From: Candidatus Poribacteria bacterium
GTDB lineage: Bacteria; Poribacteria; WGA-4E; PCPOR2b
Assembly: GCA_965218095.1 (NCBI GenBank)
Contig: OZ244587.1
Coordinates: 3,392,001-3,456,000 of the forward strand
Reading direction: 5' to 3'
DNA length: 64,000 nt
Shown here in pieces: positions 21,648 to 43,352 of the stretch. Numbering within the stretch: the first letter of the stretch is position 1; each line of letters begins with the position of its first letter. The notes beneath the pieces were generated by a model. That model ran no database searches, was not told the origin of the DNA, and was given only the letters and a program-made list of their open reading frames with translations. The position numbers were made by a program, and so were the translations under genes.

Positions 21648-21722
21648 CTTAAGGCTCATTTCCGCGTACCGTAAAGGAAAAAATGTGACACGCGCCTGAA
21701 AAATTACAGTATTTTCCGATCA

Positions 21723-21755: not shown

Positions 21756-21801
21756 ATGGAACAATCAATTCAAGAGTTTGTTTCCACGGAGGTATTGAAA
21801 T

Positions 21802-26145: not shown

Positions 26146-26151
26146 GCGTTC

Positions 26152-26187
26152 AAGAAACCGAGTTTTTTCGGAAAAACTCGGTTTCTT
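26152..26187. repeat. REP-like palindrome AAGAAACCGAGTTTT-n-AAAACTCGGTTTCT (copy 1)
   Basis: Perfect 16-bp arms; same element at 30174 and 30815. Confidence 0.9.
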
Positions 26188-26216
26188 CATACACATCAGC
26201 CAAGCGAGGTGACAAC

Positions 26217-26969
26217 ATGGCAAACGCTATTCGGCTTTATGAACATGGCGTGCGCGTATTTGCAGGACGACTGTATAACCACGATTACCTCTGGTTCTCA
26301 TCCAACGAAATCAGCAAAGTCTCAACAACCCAACCCATCCTGCACAACTACGCACTCTGTTATGCAATTTCGCAACGCTCCTACGGTGTCTATCTCGGTA
26401 CAACACCAAAATATGTTGAAGATCCGGATGGCGAATTCAATGCGATGCCGCTCTACGCAACGCCCGCCCACGCTGACTCCGAGCACGTATCGCGCACGAC
26501 TATCACCTTCAATGCCGTTGATTCACGCACATTGACAACAGGTGATAGCAAATCAATGAATACACCGAATTTGGGAAAGCGAGTCTACATCAATCCGGCG
26601 TGGGAATCAACGGAGGTAGAACGTCCAGAAAAAGGCTATCAATTTTACGTTTTCACATTCGACAACTATCGCCCACCAGGGGTAACACGGCTCGGTAAGA
26701 AAGGTGCTTCAATGCGCATTCGGTGGGATGAGGTACACCAACCTGTCGCAATCCACCGTGAAGGTAAACAAAGCCCAACACACCCAATTAACCCTTTGGA
26801 TGTCAACGGACACCTCGTCAGCTATGATCCGGTGATGATTCCCCCACATCTGTTATTTCGGACAGCAACCCTCGCCGCAGATTGGTGGGTGTTCTTCAGT
26901 CCCGGCAGAGCGCGGCATACCATACACGTCCCCAAACGTGTTTTGAACCGAATCGGAGGTGTATCATGA
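26217..26969 (+). CDS. csc1: Type I-D Cas5/Csc1
   Basis: WFSSNEIS, LHNYALCYA, YATPA, RLGKK, HPINPLD; GAGGTG RBS before ATG 26217. Confidence 0.9.
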   Translation: MANAIRLYEHGVRVFAGRLYNHDYLWFSSNEISKVSTTQPILHNYALCYAISQRSYGVYLGTTPKYVEDPDGEFNAMPLYATPAHADSEHVSRTTITFNAVDSRTLTTGDSKSMNTPNLGKRVYINPAWESTEVERPEKGYQFYVFTFDNYRPPGVTRLGKKGASMRIRWDEVHQPVAIHREGKQSPTHPINPLDVNGHLVSYDPVMIPPHLLFRTATLAADWWVFFSPGRARHTIHVPKRVLNRIGGVS

Positions 26970-28993
26970 GAATACAAGGCTATTCTTACAAACAGGTTGT
27001 TGTCGAAGATGTGAAAACCCGCCTTTATCCACATCAAGCTGCCATGTACAACGAGTGGCCCAACCACACCGGATTTCTACTCGTGACAAAAACGGGAAGT
27101 GGCAAAACACGGGCGACAGCGTTACCCGTACTGAAAAATCACGAATCTGCTGTTTTCGCCTACCCGACAAACGCGCTGATTCAAGACCAATCGCGGGCGA
27201 TTCAGCAATTGATGGACGATGAATATATCGCCTACCGAGAATTGACACCGCAGAATGCAACCGACAAGTTTGGTAAAGAAGAATATCAACTTGTCCAAAT
27301 TAACGCGCAGACGCTGGTAGATTTTGCAAAGGCGTGGGGAATGGGTGAAAAGCAAAAAGGGGCTGCACTTATAAGGCTAATTCAACAGGACAAGCAAAAA
27401 ATTGTATTGATTAACCCCGACATTCTTTATCTTCTGTACTCGTTGCGCTACCGTGGCAGCCAAGAGGCTTTATCATATTTGCAAGCATACAAGACAATTG
27501 TATTTGACGAGTTTCATCTCTACAACGGCGTTGAATTAGCCCACGCGCTTTTCCTTATCTTTTTGGCACAACGTATGGGGGCGTTTCAACGAGTTGTGTT
27601 GCTCTCTGCCACTCCGAATGAAGATGTCAAAACCTATCTTGATCGACTGCTCAACCCGCTTGTCATTGATGCGGATGTAAAAGTTCCGCAGCCCGTTTGT
27701 GGCAAGCGAGCGGTCGCATATGATGTAGAGCTCAATGCTTTGCCTTTGCCCGTTACTAAGGATGTCGTCGAAACGGCACAATCGAAGATCCTTGAACTTC
27801 AGAGCGAATTATACCGACTCCAAACAGAAAACTGGGAAGCGAACAAAGCGGGAGATTATGTGCCTTGTGTTGTTATCCTCAATTCGGTCGTCAATGCCAT
27901 CGCACTGGAGGATACCCTTGTTGAAGCGGGGATATCCCGCACAGAAATCGCACCGATTCGCGGGCTTTCAGCGCGGAGTAGTCGAGACGTGAGAGGCAAA
28001 ACGCTTGTCATCGGCACAGCGGCAATCGAAGTCGGAATTGATTTCAAAACCGATTATCTGATTTTCGAGGCGGGCAATCAAGCGTCGTTCATGCAGCGAT
28101 TTGGACGGCTTGGGAGGCATAGTGCCGGACAGGCATTCCTACTCGCTGACCCGCGTGAATATCAAGCGGTCAAATCTCTTGGGGATGACATCTCCCGCGA
28201 TGATCTAGAGCAGGGCATCAAAACTATCTATCCCGGACAGGATGCGAAAGAGTGGTTTGTTGATACGCAGTGTGGTGCGTTTACGGTGCTCGCCCAAGCT
28301 GAGAACTTCCGCAGTCGAATTATCGACGATTGGCCTGCTGATGAATCAATGAAAACTGAACTTGAGGCGTGGCTAGACGCCGCTTTGACAGACTATGCAA
28401 CACATATGAATCTATCTCAGATGAAACGTGCTCGATTGAAACTTCGACGCAAGCCAACGTGGTTTGAGCATTACAAAGCGTTGGACTCATTTCGCACATC
28501 GTTACCGAGTCAGGAGGTTTGGGATGTTCGGGAAAAAGAGAACGAGCGCGATTGGTCTTACGATGCCGACGTCAAGATGTTGCTCACTCGTGCCGAGCGG
28601 TTGTGGTATAATGAAAGACATGACCGGCTCTACGTCAAAGGCTACGGAAAGTATCGCCAAGTCTGGTTTGCCAAAACCTTCGACGATGAACGTGAAGATG
28701 ACTGTTGTGGCATACTTCGCACAACTGCCGATTATTCAAGGGAAGATATGCAGTTCATGCAGGAAGGTCATTTGACATCAGTTTCGCATGTGATGGCAAA
28801 ACAGAAATACAAAGAGCGTGTTACCGGCCATGTATTTGTTCTCGCACCCATAGATTTAATCCCAAAATTGGACTGGCGACTGGCGTGGTTTAGATGCGGA
28901 TCGCGTGGGAAATACATCATTGCATTTGATGGAGACGCCCTTCTACTGAAAGAAATCTATGATCGGGTACTGAAGGAAAGAAACAGAAAATGA
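26966..28993 (+). CDS. cas3: Type I-D helicase Cas3' (no HD domain)
   Basis: TGSGKT, YPTNAL, DEFH, LSAT, IEVGIDF, QRFGRLGR; GGAGG RBS before ATG 26966. Confidence 0.93.
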   Translation: MRIQGYSYKQVVVEDVKTRLYPHQAAMYNEWPNHTGFLLVTKTGSGKTRATALPVLKNHESAVFAYPTNALIQDQSRAIQQLMDDEYIAYRELTPQNATDKFGKEEYQLVQINAQTLVDFAKAWGMGEKQKGAALIRLIQQDKQKIVLINPDILYLLYSLRYRGSQEALSYLQAYKTIVFDEFHLYNGVELAHALFLIFLAQRMGAFQRVVLLSATPNEDVKTYLDRLLNPLVIDADVKVPQPVCGKRAVAYDVELNALPLPVTKDVVETAQSKILELQSELYRLQTENWEANKAGDYVPCVVILNSVVNAIALEDTLVEAGISRTEIAPIRGLSARSSRDVRGKTLVIGTAAIEVGIDFKTDYLIFEAGNQASFMQRFGRLGRHSAGQAFLLADPREYQAVKSLGDDISRDDLEQGIKTIYPGQDAKEWFVDTQCGAFTVLAQAENFRSRIIDDWPADESMKTELEAWLDAALTDYATHMNLSQMKRARLKLRRKPTWFEHYKALDSFRTSLPSQEVWDVREKENERDWSYDADVKMLLTRAERLWYNERHDRLYVKGYGKYRQVWFAKTFDDEREDDCCGILRTTADYSREDMQFMQEGHLTSVSHVMAKQKYKERVTGHVFVLAPIDLIPKLDWRLAWFRCGSRGKYIIAFDGDALLLKEIYDRVLKERNRK

Positions 28994-29086
28994 ACCCAGC
29001 AAACAAAATTCAGTTACTCCATCAAAGCCGCTCCAATCGTCAAAAACTTTACACACCTGTGCGACACATGCGAAAGGCCAATCCCT

Positions 29087-30175
29087 ATGCAATCACTCAT
29101 CGTTGATGATTTTGGCGCATACCTCGGCAAACGCTCCGAGCGCGTCAGCGTCCGATACCGAGACAAAGAACGAGAAAAAGAAGAACACGCCCTCATGGAC
29201 CTCGACCACATCGTCATCGCCTCGCGGGGTGTCAGTATGTCCTCAGACCTCATCGAAGCGTGTACCGAGCGCGGCATCGAAATCTCGTTTCTCAGTTTCA
29301 ACGGCAAACCGTATGCGAAACTCAACAGCCCGTCACTGACAGCGACCGTAATTTCAAGACGCGAACAACTCGCCGCATATAACGATGAACGCGGCGTCGA
29401 GATTACCAAACGGTTCGCCACAGGCAAGTTACGGAATCAGATTAACCTCGTCCGCTATTTCGGCAAATACCGCAAGAAACGTGCGCCGAAGAAGTACGCG
29501 GAGCTAGTCGAGCGGCTCACAAAAATTGAGGTGATTATTGATGAACTCCAGTGCGTGGGGATGGGTGCAACCGATGCGCCGTCAATTGATGGTGCACGCG
29601 GCACGTTACTCAACCTCGAAGGACGCGCCGGCGCTCTCTATTGGGAATGCGTCCAACGGCTGCTGCCCGCCGGACGTTTCACAACCCGAAACCATCAAGG
29701 CGCGGTTGATGACGTGAACGCGCTGCTCAACTACGGCTACGGGATACTCTACTCACAGGTCTGGAGCGCACTCACGTTAGCTGGACTCGAACCATTTGCG
29801 GGGTTCCTACACGTTGACCGCCCCGGCAAACCATCGTTGGTGTTGGATTTTATCGAGGAGTTCCGTCAGCCGATCGTTGACCGGGTTGTGTTTGCAATGA
29901 TCAACAAGAGATTCAAGGTCGAGTGGGAAGCGCCGGATAGCGACGCCGCCAAAGCCGCGCGCCAGTCCGCAACGACCGAAATTCCGACACAGCGCCGTTT
30001 AAGCAGAGACACCCGACGCGCATTTGCCGACCGGCTACTGGCACGCCTTCAGGAGACCGAGCGATTCGAGCGAAAGGAACAGAAACTCTGCAACATTATC
30101 CAACTCCAAGCCCGCCATCTGGCGATGTTCCTGCGCCGTGAACGGGATTATCAGTCGTTGGTTGCCCGCTGGTAA
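29087..30175 (+). CDS. cas1: CRISPR integrase Cas1
   Basis: EGRAG..YW, NALLNYGYGIL, GFLH, LDFIEEFRQPIVDR. Confidence 0.96.
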   Translation: MQSLIVDDFGAYLGKRSERVSVRYRDKEREKEEHALMDLDHIVIASRGVSMSSDLIEACTERGIEISFLSFNGKPYAKLNSPSLTATVISRREQLAAYNDERGVEITKRFATGKLRNQINLVRYFGKYRKKRAPKKYAELVERLTKIEVIIDELQCVGMGATDAPSIDGARGTLLNLEGRAGALYWECVQRLLPAGRFTTRNHQGAVDDVNALLNYGYGILYSQVWSALTLAGLEPFAGFLHVDRPGKPSLVLDFIEEFRQPIVDRVVFAMINKRFKVEWEAPDSDAAKAARQSATTEIPTQRRLSRDTRRAFADRLLARLQETERFERKEQKLCNIIQLQARHLAMFLRRERDYQSLVARW

Positions 30176-30208
30176 GAAACCGAGTTTTTTCCTCAAAACT
30201 CGGTTTCT
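30174..30208. repeat. REP-like palindrome (copy 2), left flank of the RAYT gene
   Basis: AGAAACCGAGTTTT...AAAACTCGGTTTCT. Confidence 0.9.
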
Positions 30209-30221
30209 GGAGGCGTCACAG

Positions 30222-30788
30222 ATGCGAAACATCCAATTTAGAGCCGGATATTATTACCATTTATACAACCGTGGTGTGGATCGTCAACCCATCTTCTTCG
30301 ATGAGGAAAACTGGGGATACTTTATAAAACGTTTGCGTCATTACTGCATACCTGATCTGATTGAAATTGTCGCTTATTGTCTCATGCCGAATCATTACCA
30401 CATTCTCGCTTATCTGAAAGATGACAACCTGAGCACGAAAATCATGCAACCATTCACCGTGTCCTACACCAAAGCTGTGAATCGGCAACAAGACCGCGTG
30501 GGCCCAGTTTTCCAAGGCACCTTTAAGGCAAAGTTAGTAGACAAAAACGAGTATCTTCTACATCTTTCACGCTATCTTCACCTGAATCCAGTATTGGCGG
30601 GGATAGTTGGTAATCCTGCAAGCTGGACATTTTCTAGCTATCAGGACTACGTTGGCTTGCGTAACGGAACTTTATCCAAACCTGATATCGTACTGTCCCA
30701 GTTTCCTTCGCGCCAGGCTTATGCTAAATTTGTCCGTGCGTATTCTGAGACCGACAGGGAGTTAATTGAGCATTTGATGTTAGATTAG
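30222..30788 (+). CDS. REP-associated tyrosine transposase (RAYT; Y1 HUH)
   Basis: YYHLYNRG...IF, AYCLMPNHYH (HUH), YLHLNPV, W..SSY; GGAGG RBS. Confidence 0.92.
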   Translation: MRNIQFRAGYYYHLYNRGVDRQPIFFDEENWGYFIKRLRHYCIPDLIEIVAYCLMPNHYHILAYLKDDNLSTKIMQPFTVSYTKAVNRQQDRVGPVFQGTFKAKLVDKNEYLLHLSRYLHLNPVLAGIVGNPASWTFSSYQDYVGLRNGTLSKPDIVLSQFPSRQAYAKFVRAYSETDRELIEHLMLD

Positions 30789-30814
30789 AAAACAAAGAAA
30801 CCGGATAGGAGGCA

Positions 30815-30849
30815 AAGAAACCGAGTTTTCAAGAAAAAACTCGGTTTCT
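30815..30849. repeat. REP-like palindrome (copy 3), right flank of the RAYT gene
   Basis: AGAAACCGAGTTTT...AAAACTCGGTTTCT. Confidence 0.9.
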
Positions 30850-30856
30850 ACATACT

Positions 30857-31108
30857 ATGCACACCTACGTCATCTACGACATTGTCAAAGACCGCATCCG
30901 CAAAAAAATCGCGGATGTCTGCCTCGATTACGGCTTAAAACGCATCCAATACAGCGCGTTCCTAGGCGACATCAATACCACACGACAGCGGGCGTTAGAG
31001 GAGAAACTCACGGAACAACTCGGCAGAGCGGAAGGGAAGATCGAAATCCTCAGCGTGTGCGCGAAGGACTTCGACAAGCGAACCGTTATTGAGGAGGCTG
31101 GAGAATGA
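30857..31108 (+). CDS. cas2: Cas2
   Basis: VIYDI, YGLKRIQYSAF. Confidence 0.95.
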   Translation: MHTYVIYDIVKDRIRKKIADVCLDYGLKRIQYSAFLGDINTTRQRALEEKLTEQLGRAEGKIEILSVCAKDFDKRTVIEEAGE

Positions 31109-31677
31109 ACATACGAGTCAGTGACATCAAGCAGTACTTCTACTGCCCAAGGGTGGTCTACCACACCTACTTGACACCCGTCCACCGGCCCGTCACGCAT
31201 CCGATGCAACTGGGCGCCGTCGAACACGAGGTGCTCAGTGTCTTGGAGCGGCGTCGAACCCTCTCCCGCTATGGGCTTGACGCTGGAAGCCGTAAATTCC
31301 ATCTCTCACTGCACGCCGAGTCTCTCGGATTGACAGGCGTACTCGACCTGCTGATTGAGACGGAAGATGGCGCGTTTCCGGTCGAGTTTAAGTCCACGAC
31401 TCAACGGCTGAACCTGAACGCGAAATACCAATTGACGGCGTATGCGATGCTGGTGGAGGCGTGTCTCGGTCATTCAGTTTCTCAAGGGTTTATCTATCGG
31501 ATTCCGACACAGCGCATCACAGCGGTTCCGATTTCAGAGACACTTCGTCGGAAGACCCACCACGCCATCGAGCAGATACGGGGTATGCTTTCAGACGAGC
31601 GGCTGCCATCGCCGACGCCACAGCGAGGAAAATGTGTCGAGTGCGAATTTCGTCGATTCTGTGGCGATGTGTTGTGA
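31105..31677 (+). CDS. cas4: Cas4 exonuclease
   Basis: YCPR, GVLD...PVEFK, QLTAYA, C-terminal CVECEFRRFC (4Fe-4S ligands). Confidence 0.95.
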   Translation: MNIRVSDIKQYFYCPRVVYHTYLTPVHRPVTHPMQLGAVEHEVLSVLERRRTLSRYGLDAGSRKFHLSLHAESLGLTGVLDLLIETEDGAFPVEFKSTTQRLNLNAKYQLTAYAMLVEACLGHSVSQGFIYRIPTQRITAVPISETLRRKTHHAIEQIRGMLSDERLPSPTPQRGKCVECEFRRFCGDVL

Positions 31678-32072: not shown

Positions 32073-33438
32073 GTTTCAACCTTTGCCCCGATGAAAAGGG
32101 GACTGAAAGTGACGAGATTCAGATCCCTCTGTAGTAGCACCTGAGTTTCAACCTTTGCCCCGATGAAAAGGGGACTGAAAGTATTCGTCAGTTACTGTAC
32201 AGGTTATCGTAACTGTTGTGTTTCAACCTTTGCCCCGATGAAAAGGGGACTGAAAGTTATCTATATCCGCATCTGTCTCGTCATCAATATCGCGTTTCAA
32301 CCTTTGCCCCGATGAAAAGGGGACTGAAAGGCAAATTGGGCGATGCTCGGTCTATTTCTGCGAGAGTTTCAACCTTTGCCCCGATGAAAAGGGGACTGAA
32401 AGACTCCAATGTGATAGCGTGGACGGCACTGGCTATTCACGTTTCAACCTTTGCCCCGATGAAAAGGGGACTGAAAGTGCCGGTCCAGTGCGTTGTTGCA
32501 GGTCCTGTTCTGCGTTTCAACCTTTGCCCCGATGAAAAGGGGACTGAAAGTCAAGTTGATAACCTTTTCCCTGACTGCTTGTAGCGATGTTTCAACCTTT
32601 GCCCCGATGAAAAGGGGACTGAAAGTGCACTCAAAGAATACATCGTGTTCTCAGATGTCGGTGTGTTTCAACCTTTGCCCCGATGAAAAGGGGACTGAAA
32701 GTGCTCGGCGACTTCGCAAATAGCAACGCCGAACAACCGTTTCAACCTTTGCCCCGATGAAAAGGGGACTGAAAGGGTAGTCTCAGTTTCACTTAATGTC
32801 GCTCCTTTGGGTTTCAACCTTTGCCCCGATGAAAAGGGGACTGAAAGAACGTGATTCAGGTGGCTCTCTTAGAGTTGTTTCCGCCGTTTCAACCTTTGCC
32901 CCGATGAAAAGGGGACTGAAAGCAAGTATCCTATACTTGGTGCTGCAGGACTTGGAGCAGTTTCAACCTTTGCCCCGATGAAAAGGGGACTGAAAGTCTG
33001 AATTGACTGCACGGACCTGGAAATCATATTCGGGTTTCAACCTTTGCCCCGATGAAAAGGGGACTGAAAGGTCATTAAAAATATTACGGAATAGCGCACT
33101 CTCAAGTTTCAACCTTTGCCCCGATGAAAAGGGGACTGAAAGACCGATCCTACATGGCCCGATCTCCCGTCTGTCCCTGAGTTTCAACCTTTGCCCCGAT
33201 GAAAAGGGGACTGAAAGCACTAATTCACCTCAACAGCGTGGTCGTTATATCGGTGGTTTCAACCTTTGCCCCGATGAAAAGGGGACTGAAAGGATAAGCA
33301 CCCGTCACTAATATTGGGGCAGGGGAGGTTTCAACCTTTGCCCCGATGAAAAGGGGACTGAAAGGAAGCCCCTGCGCCACTTCCGACCGCCGTTTTGACG
33401 AGTTTCAACCTTTGCCCCGATGAAAAGGGGACTGAAAG

Positions 33439-36400
33439 GCTTCAGGACATCATCAATAATCTGTTTCCGGGGTCGTTTCAACCTTTGCCCCGATGAAAAG
33501 GGGACTGAAAGCGCGATAGTGTGAAAGAAATGTTTGAGAATGTGGGTTTGTTTCAACCTTTGCCCCGATGAAAAGGGGACTGAAAGTTTCAGGAAGTTGA
33601 CACGGTGGCAGCAGTTCTGGGTTTCAACCTTTGCCCCGATGAAAAGGGGACTGAAAGGAATCAGTGATGGACGCGGTGGTGTCATTTCTGTATCGTTTCA
33701 ACCTTTGCCCCGATGAAAAGGGGACTGAAAGAGCCCGTATCTTGGACGAGCAGGTGTTCGGTATCAGTTTCAACCTTTGCCCCGATGAAAAGGGGACTGA
33801 AAGGACCGACTTTGTGCATCTCCCGATAGGCGGAGAGTCAAGTTTCAACCTTTGCCCCGATGAAAAGGGGACTGAAAGTTCACATACGCGCCGAGAGGGA
33901 TTCGCTTCTCGACTGCGTTTCAACCTTTGCCCCGATGAAAAGGGGACTGAAAGGATACCAACATTCGATCACTTCATAGGTGTCTTGGCGGGTTTCAACC
34001 TTTGCCCCGATGAAAAGGGGACTGAAAGACATCGTCAAGCCATTCTATATACTTCTCATCAGAATGTTTCAACCTTTGCCCCGATGAAAAGGGGACTGAA
34101 AGACTCGCATCTATCGGGAGAACGGGCAGACGCTTTAGTTTCAACCTTTGCCCCGATGAAAAGGGGACTGAAAGATAAAGTCTTGCACGAGCACGGAGGC
34201 GCGACCAAGTTTCAACCTTTGCCCCGATGAAAAGGGGACTGAAAGTGACCACTTTCGTCGCGGCGGCAGGAAAGCCGTCTGGGTTTCAACCTTTGCCCCG
34301 ATGAAAAGGGGACTGAAAGATATCAGGATTGAGAAGCCGATACCATGCATGACCCTGTTTCAACCTTTGCCCCGATGAAAAGGGGACTGAAAGAGTGTTC
34401 GGACGGTCGATGCCTCGACCATTTTTGTTAGTTTCAACCTTTGCCCCGATGAAAAGGGGACTGAAAGGGTCCCCATCATGCAACTCATTGTGATGGATCT
34501 GAAGTGTTTCAACCTTTGCCCCGATGAAAAGGGGACTGAAAGCGCTTAGGGCGATACTTGTCGGTGCGTACCCGAAATAAGTTTCAACCTTTGCCCCGAT
34601 GAAAAGGGGACTGAAAGGCGACATCCAGTTCTGGGGTAACGATACCCGCGGCTGTTTCAACCTTTGCCCCGATGAAAAGGGGACTGAAAGTGCAGAAGAT
34701 TTGGAAGGGGAGTTTAGGATTATATTGTTTCAACCTTTGCCCCGATGAAAAGGGGACTGAAAGTGAAGCTGAAACTTGGCAAATGCGAAATGTTTTGATG
34801 TTTCAACCTTTGCCCCGATGAAAAGGGGACTGAAAGCTCTCAAGTATCAACGCACTATTCGACCGTGCCCCGTTTCAACCTTTGCCCCGATGAAAAGGGG
34901 ACTGAAAGTTACCCAGTGGCTTGGTAATGTCTCAAGGCCTGTTGCGTTTCAACCTTTGCCCCGATGAAAAGGGGACTGAAAGTTTGCTTTTAACATGTTT
35001 AGGAATGCCGCTGCGTGGTGTTTCAACCTTTGCCCCGATGAAAAGGGGACTGAAAGGACACAAAGAAGAATATGTGAAAGTGTATCCTTCGGGTAAGTTT
35101 CAACCTTTGCCCCGATGAAAAGGGGACTGAAAGCAGAGCCGGTAGCCGTTCAGCCGAATAATCGTAGTTTCAACCTTTGCCCCGATGAAAAGGGGACTGA
35201 AAGGCTTCAGGACATCATCAATAATCTGTTTCCGGGGTCGTTTCAACCTTTGCCCCGATGAAAAGGGGACTGAAAGCGCGATAGTGTGAAAGAAATGTTT
35301 GAGAATGTGGGTTTGTTTCAACCTTTGCCCCGATGAAAAGGGGACTGAAAGTTTCAGGAAGTTGACACGGTGGCAGCAGTTCTGGGTTTCAACCTTTGCC
35401 CCGATGAAAAGGGGACTGAAAGGAATCAGTGATGGACGCGGTGGTGTCATTTCTGTATCGTTTCAACCTTTGCCCCGATGAAAAGGGGACTGAAAGAGCC
35501 CGTATCTTGGACGAGCAGGTGTTCGGTATCAGTTTCAACCTTTGCCCCGATGAAAAGGGGACTGAAAGGACCGACTTTGTGCATCTCCCGATAGGCGGAG
35601 AGTCAAGTTTCAACCTTTGCCCCGATGAAAAGGGGACTGAAAGTTCACATACGCGCCGAGAGGGATTCGCTTCTCGACTGCGTTTCAACCTTTGCCCCGA
35701 TGAAAAGGGGACTGAAAGGATACCAACATTCGATCACTTCATAGGTGTCTTGGCGGGTTTCAACCTTTGCCCCGATGAAAAGGGGACTGAAAGACATCGT
35801 CAAGCCATTCTATATACTTCTCATCAGAATGTTTCAACCTTTGCCCCGATGAAAAGGGGACTGAAAGACTCGCATCTATCGGGAGAACGGGCAGACGCTT
35901 TAGTTTCAACCTTTGCCCCGATGAAAAGGGGACTGAAAGATAAAGTCTTGCACGAGCACGGAGGCGCGACCAAGTTTCAACCTTTGCCCCGATGAAAAGG
36001 GGACTGAAAGTGACCACTTTCGTCGCGGCGGCAGGAAAGCCGTCTGGGTTTCAACCTTTGCCCCGATGAAAAGGGGACTGAAAGATATCAGGATTGAGAA
36101 GCCGATACCATGCATGACCCTGTTTCAACCTTTGCCCCGATGAAAAGGGGACTGAAAGAGTGTTCGGACGGTCGATGCCTCGACCATTTTTGTTAGTTTC
36201 AACCTTTGCCCCGATGAAAAGGGGACTGAAAGGGTCCCCATCATGCAACTCATTGTGATGGATCTGAAGTGTTTCAACCTTTGCCCCGATGAAAAGGGGA
36301 CTGAAAGCGCTTAGGGCGATACTTGTCGGTGCGTACCCGAAATAAGTTTCAACCTTTGCCCCGATGAAAAGGGGACTGAAAGGCGACATCCAGTTCTGGG

Positions 36401-36931
36401 GTAACGATACCCGCGGCTGTTTCAACCTTTGCCCCGATGAAAAGGGGACTGAAAGTGCAGAAGATTTGGAAGGGGAGTTTAGGATTATATTGTTTCAACC
36501 TTTGCCCCGATGAAAAGGGGACTGAAAGTGAAGCTGAAACTTGGCAAATGCGAAATGTTTTGATGTTTCAACCTTTGCCCCGATGAAAAGGGGACTGAAA
36601 GCTCTCAAGTATCAACGCACTATTCGACCGTGCCCCGTTTCAACCTTTGCCCCGATGAAAAGGGGACTGAAAGTTACCCAGTGGCTTGGTAATGTCTCAA
36701 GGCCTGTTGCGTTTCAACCTTTGCCCCGATGAAAAGGGGACTGAAAGTTTGCTTTTAACATGTTTAGGAATGCCGCTGCGTGGTGTTTCAACCTTTGCCC
36801 CGATGAAAAGGGGACTGAAAGGACACAAAGAAGAATATGTGAAAGTGTATCCTTCGGGTAAGTTTCAACCTTTGCCCCGATGAAAAGGGGACTGAAAGCA
36901 GAGCCGGTAGCCGTTCAGCCGAATAATCGTA
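33439..36931 (+). repeat. Tandem duplication of a 24-spacer block (period 1765 bp)
   Basis: Spacers in 33439-35166 recur in the same order in 35204-36931. Confidence 0.95.
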
Positions 36932-39900
36932 GTTTCAACCTTTGCCCCGATGAAAAGGGGACTGAAAGGCAGAGAGCTTCCGACCTTTGCCACGATTCCA
37001 GGTAGGTTTCAACCTTTGCCCCGATGAAAAGGGGACTGAAAGCTAGGCGAATGCCGGTCTTTTCGGCTATCAGGTTGATGTTTCAACCTTTGCCCCGATG
37101 AAAAGGGGACTGAAAGATATTGACACCACCCCCCCGATTATCCCAATAATCCCAGTTTCAACCTTTGCCCCGATGAAAAGGGGACTGAAAGTTCACCACA
37201 ACAGCGTGGTCGGTACAATTCTTCTAATGGTTTCAACCTTTGCCCCGATGAAAAGGGGACTGAAAGATGACCTCCATGGTTTGGATTAGCTCCGGCAACA
37301 GCGGTTTCAACCTTTGCCCCGATGAAAAGGGGACTGAAAGAGCCTTGCTTTTCAGGCTGCCGTCGCCATCTGGCCTGTGTTTCAACCTTTGCCCCGATGA
37401 AAAGGGGACTGAAAGTCGTCAAATTGCCAACCACATCGGTCTGCTTCGTAGCCGTTTCAACCTTTGCCCCGATGAAAAGGGGACTGAAAGAACCAGTCGT
37501 AGGATTCCCCCAGAACTTGAGATTGCCAGTTTCAACCTTTGCCCCGATGAAAAGGGGACTGAAAGACTCACGGGACTTCTGGAGATGTTTTCTGGTGTAT
37601 GCTGTTTCAACCTTTGCCCCGATGAAAAGGGGACTGAAAGACTCACGGGACTTCTGGAGATGTTTTCTGGTGTATGCTGTTTCAACCTTTGCCCCGATGA
37701 AAAGGGGACTGAAAGTGGCAATTACAATGAGATTTATGGTAATCGCTTTGGTATGTTTCAACCTTTGCCCCGATGAAAAGGGGACTGAAAGATTGATGTT
37801 GCCTAATAATCTCCCTCCCTGGTCCGTAGTTTCAACCTTTGCCCCGATGAAAAGGGGACTGAAAGTCAAAGTAAGAGCCAAGGTCCTGGACGCTTTGAGC
37901 AAGTTTCAACCTTTGCCCCGATGAAAAGGGGACTGAAAGTAGCGTCATGGAGAATTGAGAACATCCGCCGCTCCGAGTTTCAACCTTTGCCCCGATGAAA
38001 AGGGGACTGAAAGAGACGGAACGGGCATCCTGCCGGAAGGACTTCAAGCCGTTTCAACCTTTGCCCCGATGAAAAGGGGACTGAAAGGGTGACGGCGTGG
38101 AAGTAAACGCTCATATCCGGTGGTAGTTTCAACCTTTGCCCCGATGAAAAGGGGACTGAAAGCAGAAAGAATTAGTTGTACAGCATCAATAATCATAGTG
38201 GTTTCAACCTTTGCCCCGATGAAAAGGGGACTGAAAGGCTGTTGTGGCTTGGACTGTGCTATCTACTGCAGTGTTTCAACCTTTGCCCCGATGAAAAGGG
38301 GACTGAAAGCAGCCGACCAAATACCGCTTCCTTTGGTAATTAGACGCGTTTCAACCTTTGCCCCGATGAAAAGGGGACTGAAATCGAAGAACAAGGCACA
38401 CTTTGCGAAATGGTATACAGAGTTTCAACCTTTGCCCCGATGAAAAGGGGACTGAAAGCCCGACGACCGTAACCCTGTCCTTATCCCACCCTTCCGTTTC
38501 AACCTTTGCCCCGATGAAAAGGGGACTGAAATCGAAGAACAAGGCACACTTTGCGAAATGGTATACAGAGTTTCAACCTTTGCCCCGACGAAAAGGGGAC
38601 TGAAATACGAGTAGTCCGTTGGCCTTCGTCGATTTCGCTGCGTGGTTTCAACCTTTGCCCCGACGAAAAGGGGACTGAAATACTCGTCGATCAGCGCCCG
38701 GCACGTCGCGGTCCCGGCGTTTCAACCTTTGCCCCGACGAAAAGGGGACTGAAATTGTTGTAATGCCATGTCTCATTGAGAAATGGTAAACCTGTTTCAA
38801 CCTTTGCCCCGACGAAAAGGGGACTGAAAGCATCATCAATCGGATCAATACTAAACAGCGTTCCGTTGTTTCAACCCTTGCCCCGACGAAAAGGGGACTG
38901 AAAGTAATTCTTTGATTGGAGATTCATAGATGGCTAGCGTTGTTTCAACCCTTGCCCCGACGAAAAGGGGACTGAAAGCCACAATAAGTGGGTGGCTCGC
39001 CTCTGTGGCATGATAGTTTCAACCCTTGCCCCGATGAAAAGGGGACTGAAAGTGGTCGGGAAAGTGCTGCAGCGTACTGAGTCCGACATGGTTTCAACCC
39101 TTGCCCCGATGAAAAGGGGACTGAAATGCTCACCTGCGGCTTTGGTCTTCATCACCTGCTCACGTTTCAACCTTTGCCCCGACGAAAAGGGGACTGAAAT
39201 AGACATCTATTTGGCGACTATCATTCTCTTCAATCCAAGTTTCAACCTTTGCCCCGACGAAAAGGGGACTGAAATACTTCTTGAATTGCGTGATCGGGCT
39301 TTTGAGGCTTCAGGTTTCAACCTTTGCCCCGACGAAAAGGGGACTGAAATAAAAGGAGTCGAACATGACCCACTATCAATTAACTCAGTTTCAACCTTTG
39401 CCCCGACGAAAAGGGGACTGAAATTCACGCCAATACTCCCCAACTGGTGGGCAATCACCTGGTTTCAACCTTTGCCCCGACGAAAAGGGGACTGAAATAC
39501 TTTCCCACTTTCGCTTCCCTCCTTCTCTCCTTTAGTTTCAACCTTTGCCCCGACGAAAAGGGGACTGAAATAAGACGAACAAATGCCTACCGCTCGGCTC
39601 ACGTGCGGTTTCAACCTTTGCCCCGACGAAAAGGGGACTGAAATTGAACTCATGGTATTTTGACCGATTCTTTCCTCCGCTGTTTCAACCTTTGCCCCGA
39701 CGAAAAGGGGACTGAAATCTCCGAATGCAATGCTGTCACCCATGCAGCCAAGCAGTTTCAACCTTTGCCCCGACGAAAAGGGGACTGAAATCATGTAGAA
39801 GCCAAGGGGATAATCTATTGCTACAGGTTTCAACCTTTGCCCCGACGAAAAGGGGACTGAAATTGCACTCCAAAAAGGAATGCCATCTCGGACATCGCTG

Positions 39901-40792
39901 TTTCAACCTTTGCCCCGACGAAAAGGGGACTGAAATCTCCGAATGCAATGCTGTCACCCATGCAGCCAAGCAGTTTCAACCTTTGCCCCGACGAAAAGGG
40001 GACTGAAATGCGTAATATTGTCATGACCAGATAGGCATTCGTCTAGTTTCAACCTTTGCCCCGACGAAAAGGGGACTGAAATTTTCCCGTCAAGTTCCGA
40101 CCAATGCCGATGGTCACTGTTTCAACCTTTGCCCCGACGAAAAGGGGACTGAAATGGGAAATGGGGGAACGTGGCGTGGAGTGCGGTTATAATGCACTCT
40201 GCATGTTTCAACCTTTGCCCCGACGAAAAGGGGACTGAAAGCCTCACACTTTCTCACCTGCGCCTTCCTCCTATAGTGGTTTCAACCTTTGCCCCGACGA
40301 AAAGGGGACTGAAAGTATCTAACATGCTTGACTTGCAACCTAGTAGCAGAATTGTTTCAACCCTTGCCCCGATGAAAAGGGGACTGAAAGACGATTTTAG
40401 CGTTCCCTACCGGGACACAACAAATGGTTTCAACCCTTGCCCCGATGAAAAGGGGACTGAAAGCATCTTTGATTTGTTCATTATGTTCATAAGATTTGGG
40501 TTTCAACCCTTGCCCCGACGAAAAGGGGACTGAAAGTTGCAACGACGAGGCAAAAGAGCGAATAGAGGGGCTAAAAAGGGCAAAATTTCATGACGCACGC
40601 GGGGCAGCCCGGCGTAGTGCTAGCAAGGCGTTAGAAGCGCTTGAGATCATATTTGAAGCCTTGCCCCTCACTCTCGCCAAGGCCACACCCAAAACGCTTG
40701 AGGATTTCAAGAAGATCCCAAGCCGAGACATCCGCCGTCTCCTCGACAGGTTTCAATTCGTGCCCCGACGAAAAGGGGACTGAAAGTAGTTT

Positions 40793-40818
40793 TGCTATAC
40801 TATATGATCGAAAGGAGG
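40793..40818 (+). promoter_or_regulatory. Extended -10 (TGcTATACT) and AGGAGG RBS inside the giant spacer
   Basis: TG at 40793, TATACT at 40796-40801, AGGAGG at 40813-40818, 8 nt before ATG 40827. Confidence 0.65.
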
Positions 40819-40826
40819 TTTTCATC

Positions 40827-42686
40827 ATGTCAAGTTTCCGTACCATTTCACGGCTACTCATTTGTCTGTTTCTCCTGTGCAGCTCTGCCATCGCACAAAT
40901 CGTCGAAATTCCCGACCCTAACCTCGCGGCGGCGATACGGGATAACCTCGGCTTAAACCCAAACGAACCAATACAGCAAGAAGATTTGTTGCGCCTCACC
41001 AGTCTTGAAGCAATAGACAGAGGCATCAAAGACCTCACAGGTCTCGAGTATATGACAAATCTTAGAGGATTTAATCTCTACAAAAACGAAATCGTTGACA
41101 TAAGCCCACTGGCGAGTCTAACCAAACTCACATGGTTTAACCTCTTGAGCAACCAGATAGTTGATCTAACTCCCCTCCGTAAACTCGTAAGACTAAGAAC
41201 CATCATACTTAGCAACAACCGAATTAAAGATGTTCATCCACTCGGATCTCTCACAAATCTAGTTTATCTAAATCTACGCCACAATCAGATTACAGATTTC
41301 ACACCACTTGCCAATCTAGTAAACCTTGAAAGACTTAGAATCGAGTACAATCCCAGCACCGATATCAGTTTTGCCAATGGTCTAAACCTAATCGAGTTTA
41401 TTTATCACGAAATCTGTGACCTGCCGAGACTTCCAATTCAAGAACGCATAGATAATCGAAGTTTCCCATCGATCTTTCAAGCATGGAATGGACTGATAGA
41501 TGATTCATTAACAGAAGACGATCGAACAGCACTCCATGATATCTATTGGGGACCATATTTTAGGCTCGATTGGCGAGAAGGCTTCCAGCTAGTCGGCGAC
41601 TTAAAAGCCTCCCGGGCGAGCCGTGACCTATTGCTCACCAAAAATCCCAACATGCTGATCGTTACTCATATTTTCATGCGAGGCGGCTCCATAACGAATT
41701 TCTTCCCCGAAAACTTTCCCTACTGGATTAGAGATGAAAACGGCAACCCTATCGTCGGAGGACCGAATTCATTTCTCCTGGATTTCACACACCCCGGCAT
41801 GCAAGATATAATTGTTCAACAAGCCATCGCACTCTCAAGATGTGGGTTGTTTGATGGTATCCTCATCGACTGGTGGCGTGAGGATGTAAACGTTTTACGC
41901 GATCATCGAAGCTTTGAGGCAGAGCAACAAGCGCGAGATATAATTATTCAAGCCGTCCGCGCTGCGGTTGGCCCTGATTTTTTAATCATAGTCAACAGCA
42001 ATCGGAGTAAAATTCCACGCACGGGGCCTGGCAATATCAACGGCATCTTCATGGAAACCCATCGCGACCACGACGACGGCTACACACATGAGTCCCTTAT
42101 GCGGATTGAAAGCACCCTGCTCTGGGCAGAAGAAAACCTCAGGGCGCCACAGCTTAACTGTTTAGAGAACACAAGCGTTAAATATGGCGCACCAGACTCC
42201 CCCGAGAACCAACAATGGATGCGAGTCTTCACCACCCTGACCCTCACCCACTCCGATGGGTATGTGCTCTCAGTGTTTGGCGACTTGCACGCGCATATTT
42301 GGTATGACTTCTGGGGCGCCGACCTCGGACGCCCCATTGGACCAAAGGGTCAACCCTACCAAAACCACGAGGGAGTCTTTATCCGAGAGTTCACCAACGG
42401 CTGGGCGGTCTACAACCGCAGCAGCAAACCCCAAGAAATCACCCTGCCGAGCCCCGCCACAGGTGTCGAAAGCCAACACACCGGCGCCACCCACCAGCTT
42501 CCTGACCTCGACGGCGAAATCTACCTCAAATCCCCCGTATCGCCATACGACCTGAACAAAGATGGCATGGTGAATATCTTCGATTTAATCATCGTCGCCA
42601 ATCGGTTCGGCGCCCCCACTGGCGATGTCAACGGAGATGGGACCACCGACATCTTCGACCTCGTTCTCGTTAGCCAGAATTTCTAA
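40827..42686 (+). CDS. Secreted internalin-like LRR protein with a putative glycoside-hydrolase-like domain and dockerin-like C-terminus, embedded between CRISPR repeats
   Basis: Signal peptide; IPDPNL cap; 22-aa LRRs (L..L.L..NQI.DL.PL); FDGILIDWW; DLNKDGMVNIFDL / DVNGDGTTDIFDL. Confidence 0.88.
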   Translation: MSSFRTISRLLICLFLLCSSAIAQIVEIPDPNLAAAIRDNLGLNPNEPIQQEDLLRLTSLEAIDRGIKDLTGLEYMTNLRGFNLYKNEIVDISPLASLTKLTWFNLLSNQIVDLTPLRKLVRLRTIILSNNRIKDVHPLGSLTNLVYLNLRHNQITDFTPLANLVNLERLRIEYNPSTDISFANGLNLIEFIYHEICDLPRLPIQERIDNRSFPSIFQAWNGLIDDSLTEDDRTALHDIYWGPYFRLDWREGFQLVGDLKASRASRDLLLTKNPNMLIVTHIFMRGGSITNFFPENFPYWIRDENGNPIVGGPNSFLLDFTHPGMQDIIVQQAIALSRCGLFDGILIDWWREDVNVLRDHRSFEAEQQARDIIIQAVRAAVGPDFLIIVNSNRSKIPRTGPGNINGIFMETHRDHDDGYTHESLMRIESTLLWAEENLRAPQLNCLENTSVKYGAPDSPENQQWMRVFTTLTLTHSDGYVLSVFGDLHAHIWYDFWGADLGRPIGPKGQPYQNHEGVFIREFTNGWAVYNRSSKPQEITLPSPATGVESQHTGATHQLPDLDGEIYLKSPVSPYDLNKDGMVNIFDLIIVANRFGAPTGDVNGDGTTDIFDLVLVSQNF

Positions 42687-42748
42687 ATAGGGTTTGTTTC
42701 AATCCTTGCCCCGACGAAAAGGGGACTGAAAGCAACCAAGGAGGTTTT

Positions 42749-42934
42749 ATGACATTACGAATTTGGGAAGCAATTATTGGCGTGCTTTTCTACATCGCCG
42801 CTGGCATTATTGTCGGGGGCATAATCCTATTGATTTTCTATGTTAGACATGAATTAGGACTTTCTGATTCATTCTGGCCCGCCGAACTCGAAGATGTATT
42901 CGAGAAAATTCGAGATAAGAGGAAGGAGAATTAA
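42749..42934 (+). CDS. Small single-pass membrane protein (61 aa) embedded between CRISPR repeats
   Basis: AAGGAGG RBS; about 24-residue hydrophobic stretch and charged C-terminus. Confidence 0.7.
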   Translation: MTLRIWEAIIGVLFYIAAGIIVGGIILLIFYVRHELGLSDSFWPAELEDVFEKIRDKRKEN

Positions 42935-43082
42935 GATGAACAAGACTTTTATCGACGACCATTTAGTTTCAACCTTTGCCCCGACGAAAAGGGGACTGAA
43001 AGCCGGCGACGCCTACACCGTTGGATTCGGATTCGCGCCGTTTCAATCCTTGCCCCGATGAAAAGGGGACTGAAAGAGCACA

Positions 43083-43120
43083 AAACTAGGCGACCGCCCC
43101 GAAGGACAATCGCCTAGTTT
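43083..43120 (+). terminator. Terminator-like hairpin formed by a spacer and the start of the next repeat
   Basis: AAACTAGGCGA...TCGCCTAGTTT 11-bp inverted repeat. Confidence 0.5.
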
Positions 43121-43352
43121 CAATCCTTATCCCGACGAAAAGGGGACTGAAAGAGCACTTTCCCACTTTCACCCCCTCTCACCTGCTTCTTGTTTCAATC
43201 CTTGCCCCGACGAAAAGGAGACTGAAAGAGCACAAAAAAAGGTGACCGCCCCGAAGGACAATCGCCTAGTTTCAATCCGTTCAAAGCATTACGTCGTCAA
43301 ATGGAGCCCTGTCGCGTTGGGCAAAGGAAGGCACAGCATGAAGGTGTATTTG

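What the first reader, a model, noticed from the sequence alone, without database searches (positions are those of the whole stretch)
40787..42695. The 1909-bp spacer is trimmed to exactly one expression unit for a secreted LRR protein
Seen: an extended -10 (TGcTATACT) starts 6 bp after the upstream repeat, followed by AGGAGG and ATG 40827, an uninterrupted 619-codon ORF, and TAA ending 9 bp before the next repeat, with no terminator. The protein has a signal peptide, internalin-like LRRs, a GH-like domain and a dockerin-like pair. Inference: such tight fit is unlikely for a random fragment and resembles an integron cassette. The repeat may serve as the mRNA 3' processing site, tying a possible host-interaction protein to CRISPR processing.
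Basis: partly seen in the sequence, partly recalled or inferred. Interest (0 to 1): 0.85.

Follow-up and report, generated by a model that had tools for sequence, protein, structure and literature searches.

The report
Intact gene inside a CRISPR array
A complete gene for a secreted sponge-symbiont surface protein sits where a 37-base spacer should be in a CRISPR array, and similar gene-sized inserts recur at the old ends of related arrays, so these arrays also store working genes by a route not yet known.

Summary
In a 121-repeat type I-D array (32073-43228, + strand) of a Candidatus Poribacteria genome, the spacer 40787-42695 is 1909 bp. It holds one intact co-oriented gene with TGcTATACT, AGGAGG, ATG 40827 and TAA 42684-42686, then 9 bp before the next repeat. 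The protein has a signal peptide, an internalin-like LRR domain, GHL15 and a dockerin. Contigs from two studies bridge both junctions, so it is not an assembly artefact.

The expression signals came with the gene. A broken paralog elsewhere, 80% identical, shares the promoter and ribosome-binding site and has no repeats. dN/dS between the two copies is 0.27.

The insert is not unique. The two neighbouring spacers are 213 and 233 bp, and the second ends in a gene cut after 10 codons. In 17 related arrays, 20 of 549 spacers are 150 bp or longer, and 15 of the 20 lie in the last tenth of their array. They are mostly co-oriented. Some are truncated gene pieces. Two are conserved between species (dN/dS 0.16 and 0.47).

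Best reading: a repeat-directed capture of a gene-sized fragment, kept by selection. It is not an integron-like system by any defining feature. Cas6d trimming of the 3' end is plausible but untested.

The parts
19331..31677 (+). Type I-D cas operon. It contains cas6 (19331-20314), a WYL/WCX regulator (20504-21475), cas10d (21802-24582), csc2/cas7d (25210-26145), csc1/cas5d (26142-26969) and the cas3' helicase (26882-28993). The adaptation genes follow: cas1 (29087-30175), a RAYT-like Y1 transposase gene (30222-30788), cas2 (30857-31108) and cas4 (31105-31677).
   Evidence: Pfam; NCBIfam; ORFs.
32073..43228 (+). CRISPR array of 121 repeats of 37 nt and 120 spacers. Repeats are perfect at the leader end and degenerate at the trailer end.
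   Evidence: The repeats match Rfam CRISPR-DR32 and DR10 on the + strand, below the gathering score.
40537..40749 (+). Over-long spacer 115, 213 bp. One + frame is open throughout. No relative was found.
   Evidence: There was no match in the 80 other genomes of the order and no PHROG hit.
40750..40786 (+). Upstream flanking repeat, with 5 changes from the consensus, all in its 5' part. The hairpin and the ACTGAAAG handle are kept.
40787..42695 (+). Over-long spacer 116, 1909 bp: the insert in question.
40793..40801 (+). Extended -10 element, TGcTATACT. The 12-mer TGCTATACTATA is also found before the paralog and about 22 nt before a tRNA gene. An overlapping candidate promoter is CTGAAA-17-TATGAT (40780-40808), whose -35 lies in the repeat.
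40814..40819 (+). Ribosome-binding site AGGAGG.
   Evidence: it is conserved in the paralog.
40827..42686 (+). Gene for a 619-aa secreted protein: signal peptide, internalin-like LRR domain, GHL15 domain and a dockerin pair.
   Evidence: dN/dS is 0.27 against the paralog.
42696..42732 (+). Downstream flanking repeat. The expected Cas6d cut is between 42724 and 42725. That would leave the hairpin on the mRNA 3' end and the 8-nt handle on the next RNA. This is inferred.
   Evidence: The type I-D processing rule comes from PMC10212523 (passages seen).
42733..42965 (+). Over-long spacer 117, 233 bp. It has AGGAGG, a 61-aa membrane-type ORF (42749-42934), then a second ribosome-binding site and ATG 42936. 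That second gene is cut by the repeat after 10 codons.
   Evidence: There was no match in the 80 other genomes.
43040..43278 (+). Trailer end. The unit of repeat plus hairpin-bearing spacer (43040-43126) is duplicated at 43192-43278 at 94% identity. It ends in a partial repeat, GTTTCAATCC.

Best explanation
The 1909-bp 'spacer' is a whole working gene captured between two repeats of the old, trailer-proximal part of a type I-D CRISPR array.

Shown. The gene is a duplicate of a poribacterial LRR-GHL15-dockerin gene. It arrived with its own extended -10 promoter and ribosome-binding site. It is intact, whereas its only close paralog is broken. Most of the divergence between the two copies happened under purifying selection. 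The arrangement is real DNA seen in samples of two studies. It is one case of a recurrent class: gene-sized inserts that sit exactly in spacer position, cluster at trailer ends and are mostly co-oriented with the array. Some are cut arbitrarily and some are conserved between species.

Inferred origin. A repeat-directed insertion placed the fragment. My first choice, at about 40%, is an aberrant integration of a kilobase-long fragment by the Cas1-Cas2-Cas4 adaptation machinery. The alternative, at about 30%, is recombination or element integration at repeats. Selection then kept inserts that carry an intact, co-oriented and harmless or useful gene near the end of the array, where little crRNA production can be disturbed.

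Inferred working. Transcription starts near 40808 from the gene's own promoter. The protein is exported by the Sec route and docks by its dockerin to one of the cohesin proteins of the cell. Cas6d probably cuts the transcript in the downstream repeat at 42724/42725. That would give a hairpin-ended 3' end 38 nt after the stop codon and would separate the mRNA from the small downstream ORF. The repeats are then passive flanks plus a likely RNA-processing site, not parts of a dedicated cassette system.
For: Anatomy is, and protein domains. The genome has 8 cohesin matches over the cut-off.

The paralog is 80% identical over insert positions 28-1889 and shares the promoter 12-mer and the ribosome-binding site. 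It carries an in-frame TAG and a frameshift. dN/dS is 0.27 over 614 codons. Both junctions are bridged by contigs with 0 differences in two studies.

Recurrence: 20 of 549 spacers in 17 arrays are 150 bp or longer, in 11 of the 17 arrays. Fifteen of the 20 lie in the last 10% of their array.

Orientation of the longest ORF is + in 16, - in 4 and none in 4 of 24 intervals. One + interval, L039_2005, later proved to rest on a false repeat match.

Arbitrary cuts are seen in three inserts. The window's 233-bp spacer ends in a cut gene. L036_513 is a 3' piece of that genome's own WYL/WCX gene, 95.8% identical to the source. L033_1538 is an internal piece of a large methyltransferase gene, open at its 3' end.

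The contents are mixed: a phage-type small terminase subunit (E 5.6e-15) alongside host genes, much as spacers sample DNA.

Inserts are conserved between species. L042_1007 and L048_1099 are 90% identical with dN/dS 0.16. L042_718 and L051_721 are 88% identical with dN/dS 0.47.

The flanking repeats keep the Cas6d hairpin and handle. Type I-D processing leaves an 8-nt 5' handle and a 29-nt 3' handle (PMC10212523, passages).
Against: No RNA data exist, so expression, the start site and the Cas6d cut are all untested.

No case of kilobase-long integration by Cas1-Cas2 is known to me, and the spacer length ruler argues against it.

In the one insert whose source is identifiable (L036_513), the three bases before the fragment in the source read GAC, not the GTN PAM of studied type I-D systems. 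The PAM of this system is unknown.

The trailer-end clustering and the tight 3' junctions need the extra assumption of selection.

The array copy has not changed more slowly than the broken paralog: 34 against 25 unique residue changes, P 0.30. Selection on the array copy itself since its capture is therefore not shown.

dS is uneven along the gene, 0.20 in the LRR part and 0.7-1.6 in the C-terminal part. The pair has exchanged sequence, so the capture cannot be dated.
Confidence: 0.55

Rival explanations
1. The insert is a remnant of a mobile element or of recombination at repeats. An element carrying a repeat-like site integrated into a trailer-end repeat, or DNA recombined with dispersed repeat copies. 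Later deletions left only a cargo gene with its own promoter next to the junction. The neighbouring 213-bp and 233-bp pieces would be other remnants.
For: Trailer-end bias has a precedent. Phage phiAP1.1 integrates into CRISPR repeats and is mostly found in the degenerate terminal repeat (bioRxiv 10.1101/2020.10.09.333658, passages). An 899-bp plasmid-like fragment lies between two repeats in S. solfataricus locus F (PMC4390879, passage).

The 213-bp and 233-bp spacers have no relative in the 80 other genomes of the order. One long spacer in a relative encodes a phage-type small terminase subunit.

Eight of 16 ATG ORFs in inserts have a hydrophobic N-terminus, against 87 of 598 crude genome ORFs. 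That is typical of accessory cargo genes.

The array shows recombination between its own repeats: a tandem duplication of 24 units. Orphan repeat copies exist in the genome.
Against: No integrase, phage or plasmid gene lies in or next to the 1909-bp insert.

The gene belongs to a chromosomal poribacterial family with at least 2833 members and has an 80% identical chromosomal paralog.

The repeat was not found in 2.9 million viral contigs.

L036_513 is a copy of the host's own cas-locus gene, not of an element.
Confidence: 0.25
2. A dedicated gene-cassette platform. CRISPR repeats would act as recombination sites and RNA-processing sites for gene cassettes, as attC sites do in integrons. The units could be moved by Cas1-Cas2 acting like a casposase, or by the Y1 (RAYT-like) transposase encoded between cas1 and cas2. 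The array transcript or the cassette's own promoter would supply expression, and Cas6d would cut out each mRNA.
For: Inserts are co-oriented, with short 5' leaders and stop codons 9-33 bp before the next repeat in 7 of 24 intervals (P 7e-6). It is 5 of 22 after merging homologues (P 5e-4).

Two inserts are conserved between species under purifying selection. Exported or membrane proteins are enriched among them.

A single-copy RAYT-like gene sits between cas1 and cas2. It is conserved at 89-93% identity in 6 of 11 related cas loci held and is present in 13 of 81 genomes of the order.
Against: No insert was found in two different contexts, so no mobility is shown.

The paralog and the 54 other family matches have no flanking repeats. 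Several inserts are arbitrary gene fragments.

Loci with and without the RAYT-like gene both have long spacers. The gene here has its own promoter, unlike most integron cassettes. The 40-bp criterion was chosen after the fact, and ORF calling was crude.
Confidence: 0.1
3. Inert passenger. The fragment was captured recently by any route, is silent or useless, and is intact only because too little time has passed. The tight fit would be luck among many such events.
For: There are no expression data. The relative-rate test shows no slower change in the array copy. With about 20 long spacers seen, one good fit by chance is not absurd, since the per-fragment chance is 1-5%.
Against: The flanking repeats differ from each other at 2 positions and from the consensus at 3-5 positions, so the event is not very recent. 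The arrangement is identical in samples of two studies. Other inserts of the class are kept between species with dN/dS 0.16. The excess of tight junctions is not explained by luck. The other copy of this gene pair is the broken one.
Confidence: 0.08
4. Assembly artefact: a chimeric join inside repeats of a long-read assembly.
For: CRISPR arrays are hard to assemble. The array holds a 24-unit tandem duplication that might itself be an artefact.
Against: Independent contigs from runs of two studies cross both repeat-gene junctions with 0 differences.
Confidence: 0.01

Closest known systems
Long fragment between two CRISPR repeats in Sulfolobus solfataricus locus F (899 bp, pNOB8-like), described in the Sulfolobales review PMC4390879 (passage seen)
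   Same: Foreign DNA far longer than a spacer lies exactly between two repeats, without a transposase.
   Different: That fragment is a plasmid piece and is not reported as an intact expressed gene. Here the insert is a complete cellular gene with promoter, and the pattern recurs in many arrays with a position and orientation bias.
Prophage integration into CRISPR repeats (phiAP1.1 in Streptococcus pyogenes; bioRxiv 10.1101/2020.10.09.333658, passages seen)
   Same: The insertion site is the repeat itself, with a preference for the degenerate terminal repeat. The inserted DNA ends up flanked by repeats.
   Different: That case is a whole 40-kb-class prophage with an integrase and attP, in a type II-A array. 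Here there are 0.2-2 kb pieces, no integrase and a type I-D array.
IS and transposon insertions in CRISPR arrays. There were 59 cases in a curation (PMC4852346). Long spacers were mostly transposon-like (14 among the listed data sets, PMC4524480). Passages of both were seen. For Tn7-like elements that target CRISPR repeats (PMC11837452) only the listing and abstract were seen.
   Same: The array is interrupted by kilobase-sized DNA. One relative (L043_2121) is exactly this, with two transposase genes on the opposite strand.
   Different: The 1909-bp insert has no transposase and no terminal inverted repeats, and no spacer halves are left at its ends.
Integron gene cassettes (recalled knowledge, not tested against a paper here)
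   Same: One ORF per unit, all units co-oriented, a very short gap between the stop codon and the next recombination site, and many exported small proteins.
   Different: There is no attC, no IntI integrase and no attI/Pc. This gene has its own promoter, no unit was seen in two contexts, and some units are gene fragments.
Engineered Cas6/Csy4 sites used to cut operon transcripts into separate mRNAs (recalled: Qi et al. 2012, not read here)
   Same: A Cas6-type hairpin placed between cistrons would give defined mRNA ends. The layout gene-repeat-small ORF-repeat matches that design.
   Different: That is a synthetic device. Natural use for a protein-coding mRNA is not shown here or, as far as my searches went, elsewhere.
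Poribacterial LRR-GHL15-dockerin protein family
   Same: The gene product is an ordinary member. There are 2833 proteins with E at most 1e-20, the best non-self hits are 53-56% identical, and the sources name Candidatus Poribacteria.
   Different: It is shorter than most (619 aa against 850-1080 aa, with fewer LRRs). It is the only member in this genome that lies in the array.

Membership tests
Type I-D CRISPR-Cas locus | The signature genes csc2 (cas7d), csc1 (cas5d) and cas10d, with a separate cas3' helicase | tested here: met
   Csc2 PF18320 139.6 bits. Csc1 TIGR03159 92.1 bits over a cut-off of 41.4. Cas10d TIGR03174 only 33.7 bits, under its cut-off of 60. The helicase has DEAD and Cas3-like_C_2 domains.
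Type I-D CRISPR-Cas locus | A 37-nt repeat with a short stem-loop followed by an 8-nt handle | tested here: met
   A 4-bp stem with an 8-nt loop, then ACTGAAAG, in the consensus repeat and in both flanking repeats. Rule from PMC10212523.
Ordinary CRISPR spacer | Lies between two full repeats of the array | tested here: met
Ordinary CRISPR spacer | Length within the narrow range of the array (33-40 nt here) | tested here: not met
   1909 bp. 116 of the 120 spacers are 33-40 nt, one is 49 nt and three are 213, 1909 and 233 bp.
Ordinary CRISPR spacer | Taken next to a PAM (GTN in studied type I-D systems) | tested here: inconclusive
   The source flank of this insert is unknown. In the one related insert with a known source the flank reads GAC. 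The PAM of this system is not known.
Integron gene cassette | An attC recombination site at the 3' end of each cassette | tested here: not met
   The 3' neighbour is a CRISPR repeat with a 4-bp stem. It has none of the attC architecture as I recall it.
Integron gene cassette | An adjacent IntI tyrosine recombinase with attI and the Pc promoter | tested here: not met
   None among the 20 ORFs of the window scanned with Pfam. The array is preceded by cas genes.
Integron gene cassette | The same cassette is found in different contexts (mobility) | tested here: not met
   All-against-all comparison of 24 inserts found only orthologous positions in related species. The paralog has no repeats.
IS or transposon insertion | A transposase gene, terminal inverted repeats and target-site duplication | tested here: not met
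   The only Pfam hits are LRR, GHL15 and dockerin. The ends TAGTTTTGC... and ...ATAGGGTTT are not inverted repeats.
Prophage or plasmid remnant | Element genes (integrase, structural, replication) in or beside the insert | tested here: inconclusive
   There are none in the 1909-bp insert. The neighbours have no PHROG hit and no relatives, so a foreign origin is possible but unshown.
LRR-GHL15-dockerin proteins of Poribacteria | The domain order signal peptide, LRR, GHL15, dockerin | tested here: met

The most novel reading that the evidence does not exclude
Type I-D arrays of Poribacteria double as a gene-capture platform. CRISPR repeats would serve both as insertion sites and as Cas6d processing signals for co-oriented gene cassettes. 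These are mostly exported or membrane proteins, stored at the trailer end and kept by selection. The units would be moved by the adaptation integrase or by the cas-linked Y1 (RAYT-like) transposase. This would be a natural, CRISPR-based analogue of the integron.
Probability: 0.12. Interest if true: 0.9.

Novelty: new variant of a known kind. Interest (0 to 1): 0.6.

Why it matters
CRISPR arrays are treated as stores of short guide sequences, and long interruptions are usually written off as transposons. Here an intact cellular gene for a probable host-interaction or glycan-degrading surface protein lives in spacer position, while its only close paralog is dead. Related arrays hold further inserts that are conserved between species.

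If the pattern holds up, two things follow. The old ends of arrays would be places where genes are captured and kept. Cas6 cleavage could define the ends of protein-coding mRNAs in nature.

It also gives a concrete test bed for whether Cas1-Cas2 can integrate kilobase-long DNA in cells. That question bears on the link between CRISPR adaptation and casposons.

Tried and rejected
- Assembly artefact: rejected by bridging contigs.
- RNA evidence: no RNA holder was listed, so expression could not be tested.
- Close relatives of the gene with their flanks: none in JGI metagenome contigs. Genome contigs gave only 40-55% identical relatives in Candidatus Poribacteria assemblies. DNA search of 40 relatives gave at best 67-75% partial matches. 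The donor locus stays unknown.
- One contig of run X4 (record 23) is about 95% identical over 42411-42686 and stops matching at the stop codon. This hints at a closer copy with another 3' flank, which I could not fetch.
- Repeat in viral contigs: 0 hits.
- Self-targeting: no normal spacer matches the genome outside the array.
- PAM test: not GTN in the single testable case.
- Relative-rate test: not significant.
- Link between the RAYT-like gene and long spacers: none seen.
- Recombination at the repeat-like hairpin next to the WYL gene as the source of the L036 junction: the homology ends about 60 nt before that hairpin. This is not supported.
- L039_2005 was dropped as an insert, because one of its 'repeats' is a false match inside a coding region.
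- Literature searches for long or giant spacers, or for genes inside arrays, found no report of intact cellular genes in spacer position. Searches for Cas6 and mRNA and for RAYT with cas1 found nothing relevant. Subscription journals and supplements were not searchable, so this is not proof of absence.
Full report
WHAT IS THERE

The window is G000:C1:3392001-3456000 of a complete 6.35-Mb genome. Relatives found with the protein are titled Candidatus Poribacteria.

Positions 19331-31677 hold a type I-D cas operon: cas6, a WYL/WCX regulator, cas10d, csc2, csc1, cas3', cas1, cas2 and cas4. It is followed by a leader and an array of 121 repeats of 37 nt on the + strand, 32073-43228. The first 85 repeats are identical, and the last ones are degenerate. 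The leader is therefore on the left and the oldest spacers are on the right.

Of the 120 spacers, 116 are 33-40 nt and one is 49 nt. Spacers 115, 116 and 117 are 213, 1909 and 233 bp.

The upstream repeat ends at 40786. TGCTATACT lies at 40793-40801, AGGAGG at 40814-40819 and ATG at 40827. The frame is open for 619 codons and ends in TAA at 42684-42686. Nine bases follow, then the next repeat at 42696.

The protein has a Sec-type signal peptide, read by eye with a hydrophobicity score of 2.68. It has an internalin-like cap and LRR domain (InlA E 4e-67; LRR_4 78 bits). It also has a GHL15 domain (40.4 bits) and a dockerin (28.5 bits, cut-off 22.9). The genome has 8 cohesin matches over the cut-off, so a docking partner exists.

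Contigs from runs of two studies cross both junctions without a difference. The arrangement is therefore real DNA.

WHERE THE GENE COMES FROM

The genome holds 54 further matches to the protein. The family is huge in Poribacteria: 2833 proteins at E 1e-20 or better, with the best non-self hits 53-56% identical and mostly 850-1080 aa long.

One paralog, at G000:C1:2780397-2782263, is 80% identical in DNA over insert positions 28-1889. It shares GGAGGTTTTCATCATG. About 110 nt upstream it has the same 12-mer, TGCTATACTATA, and an extra palindrome-rich stretch of about 88 nt separates the two. That 12-mer occurs 5 times in the genome, once about 22 nt before a tRNA gene, which fits a real promoter. 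So the expression signals travelled with the gene.

The paralog has no repeats near it, and it carries an in-frame TAG and a frameshift. No repeat copy lies within 3 kb of any other family match.

dN/dS between the two copies is 0.27 (dN 0.152, dS 0.572, 614 codons). dS is 0.20 in the LRR part and 0.7-1.6 in the C-terminal part. The pair has therefore exchanged sequence, and the capture cannot be dated. With six outgroup proteins, the array copy has 34 unique residue changes and the paralog 25 (P 0.30). Purifying selection on the array copy after capture is likely, but not shown separately.

THE NEIGHBOURS SHOW THAT TRIMMING IS NOT THE RULE

The 233-bp spacer starts with AGGAGG and a 61-aa membrane-type ORF (42749-42934). 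It then carries a second ribosome-binding site and ATG 42936, whose frame is cut by the repeat after 10 codons. The 213-bp spacer is open in one + frame. Neither has a relative in the 80 other genomes of the order or a PHROG hit.

THE CLASS IS RECURRENT

I fetched arrays with the same repeat family from the family's genomes.

- Frequency: across 17 arrays with at least 9 spacers there are 549 spacers. Twenty are 150 bp or longer, and they occur in 11 of the 17 arrays.
- Position: 15 of the 20 lie in the last tenth of their array.
- Comparison: one study found 14 long spacers in its listed data sets, mostly transposon-like (PMC4524480, passages).
- Only one long spacer here is a transposon: L043_2121, with two transposase genes on the opposite strand.
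- Complete genes: an Exo_endo_phos gene in L032, lipoprotein-type ORFs in L036 and L037, and a phage-type small terminase/HTH gene in L042 and L048.
- Plain fragments: L036_513 is the 3' part of that genome's own WYL/WCX gene, 95.8% identical to the source. L033_1538 is an internal piece of a large methyltransferase gene, open at its 3' end.

Two inserts are shared by different species of one genus, with the same boundaries. L042_1007 and L048_1099 are 90% identical with dN/dS 0.16. L042_718 and L051_721 are 88% identical with dN/dS 0.47, and their 232-nt upstream part is 95% identical. Such inserts are therefore old, and at least one is under clear purifying selection.

NON-RANDOM FEATURES

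Among the 24 intervals of 150-3000 bp, the longest ORF is co-oriented in 16, opposite in 4 and absent in 4.

- One co-oriented interval, L039_2005, was later dropped, which leaves 15 co-oriented against 4 opposite.
- Of the four opposite ones, one is the transposon pair and one lies between two half repeats outside an array.
- In a third, L038_732, the co-oriented ORF is the one with a Pfam hit.

A co-oriented complete ORF stops 9-33 bp before the downstream repeat in 7 of 24 intervals. Random fragments of this genome give 1-5% each, so 0.67 are expected (P 7e-6). After merging the two homologous pairs it is 5 of 22 (P 5e-4). Counting only ORFs with family or homology support it is 3 of 22 (P 0.03). 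The 40-bp threshold was set after seeing the data, and the ORF calling was crude.

Eight of 16 ATG ORFs in inserts have a hydrophobic N-terminus, against 87 of 598 crude genome ORFs.

HOW IT MOST LIKELY WORKS

The insert occupies exactly a spacer's place, with full repeats on both sides and at most 15 bases not accounted for by the gene unit. That points to a repeat-directed event rather than a random break.

The contents of the class are a mix of foreign and own DNA, and some pieces are cut anywhere. That looks like what the adaptation machinery samples, so my first choice is an aberrant integration of long DNA by Cas1-Cas2-Cas4 (about 40%). Three things count against it. The spacer length ruler should prevent it. 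No precedent is known to me. The flank reads GAC, not GTN, in the one case with a known source.

The second choice is recombination or element integration at repeats (about 25-30%). It has a precedent for terminal-repeat preference and for a long plasmid piece between repeats.

Under either origin, selection would remove inserts that disturb the array or are useless. What remains would be co-oriented inserts near the trailer end that often carry a working gene.

A dedicated cassette system is the boldest reading the data allow (about 10-12%). It fits the orientation, the tight 3' junctions and the type of proteins. It lacks any sign of mobility, and it fails every integron criterion.

EXPRESSION IS INFERRED, NOT SHOWN

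Transcription from the gene's own promoter should start near 40808. The downstream repeat keeps the hairpin and the handle. In type I-D systems Cas6d cuts after the stem-loop, leaving an 8-nt 5' handle and a 29-nt 3' handle (PMC10212523). The expected mRNA 3' end is therefore 42724, 38 nt after the stop codon. The RNA of the small downstream ORF would begin at 42725. No RNA run was available.

COMPARISON WITH WHAT IS KNOWN, AND VERDICT

Long DNA in arrays is known as transposons, prophages and one plasmid fragment. An intact cellular gene in spacer position did not turn up in my searches, nor did a lineage-wide class of such inserts with position and orientation biases. Those searches do not cover subscription journals or supplements.

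I file this as a new variant of a known kind. Interest is 0.6.

Noticed in passing
window 30222-30788 (+), between cas1 and cas2: There is a gene for a RAYT-like Y1 (IS200-type) transposase. NCBIfam REP_Tyr_transpos gives 68.9 bits, under its cut-off of 80. Pfam Y1_Tnp gives 30.4 bits, over its cut-off of 23. It is single-copy in this genome. It is 89-93% identical in 6 of 11 related cas loci held, always between cas1 and cas2 or cas4. It is present once in 12, and twice in one, of the 13 genomes that have it, out of 81 in the order. It looks like a cas-linked domesticated gene rather than an insertion sequence.
   Followed up: partly
window 19285-19310 (+), just before the cas6 start codon at 19331; also L056 (G019): A repeat-like hairpin, GACGCGATCAAAAGCGGAC, sits in the 5' leader of cas6. 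It mimics the stem-loop of the CRISPR repeat. A near-identical element lies next to the WYL gene in G019. It may be a Cas6 binding site for self-regulation.
   Followed up: no
window 33402-35166 and 35167-36931: Spacers 19-42 are repeated exactly as spacers 43-66, a tandem duplication of 24 repeat-spacer units. Spacers 75 and 76, 86 and 88, and 104 and 107 are also identical pairs. This is either recombination between repeats or an assembly error. It was not checked against reads.
   Followed up: partly
window 43040-43278: The last repeat-spacer unit is duplicated at 94% identity. Its 'spacer' holds a 13-bp-stem hairpin (CTAGGCGA...TCGCCTAG) that reads as a terminator on the minus strand. The array ends in a partial repeat, GTTTCAATCC.
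   Followed up: partly
G000:C1:2780300-2780400 (outside the window), 5' leader of the broken paralog: An extra stretch of about 88 nt, rich in CCCGAT/ATCGGG palindromes, separates the shared promoter from the shared ribosome-binding site. It looks like a small inserted palindromic element.
   Followed up: no
L042 10210-10441 and L051 6536-6767: The 232 nt upstream of a 154-aa ORF inside a long spacer are 95% identical between two species, while the ORF itself is 78% identical in protein. The conserved part may be a non-coding RNA or a regulatory region.
   Followed up: no
L036 (G019), array-strand 12178-12690, and L056 3568-4013: A long spacer is a 95.8% identical copy of the 3' part of the same genome's WYL/WCX regulator gene from its own cas locus. 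This is a self-derived insert in the array.
   Followed up: yes
G000:C1:2803251-2803343, 3272368-3272404, 3614381-3614417 (outside the window): Orphan repeat copies and mini-arrays lie far from any cas gene. One is a repeat plus a 38-nt spacer plus a partial repeat.
   Followed up: partly
window 43343-43391 (+): A weak match to the c-di-GMP-I-GGC riboswitch model (23.6 bits against a gathering score of 59). It is probably chance.
   Followed up: no
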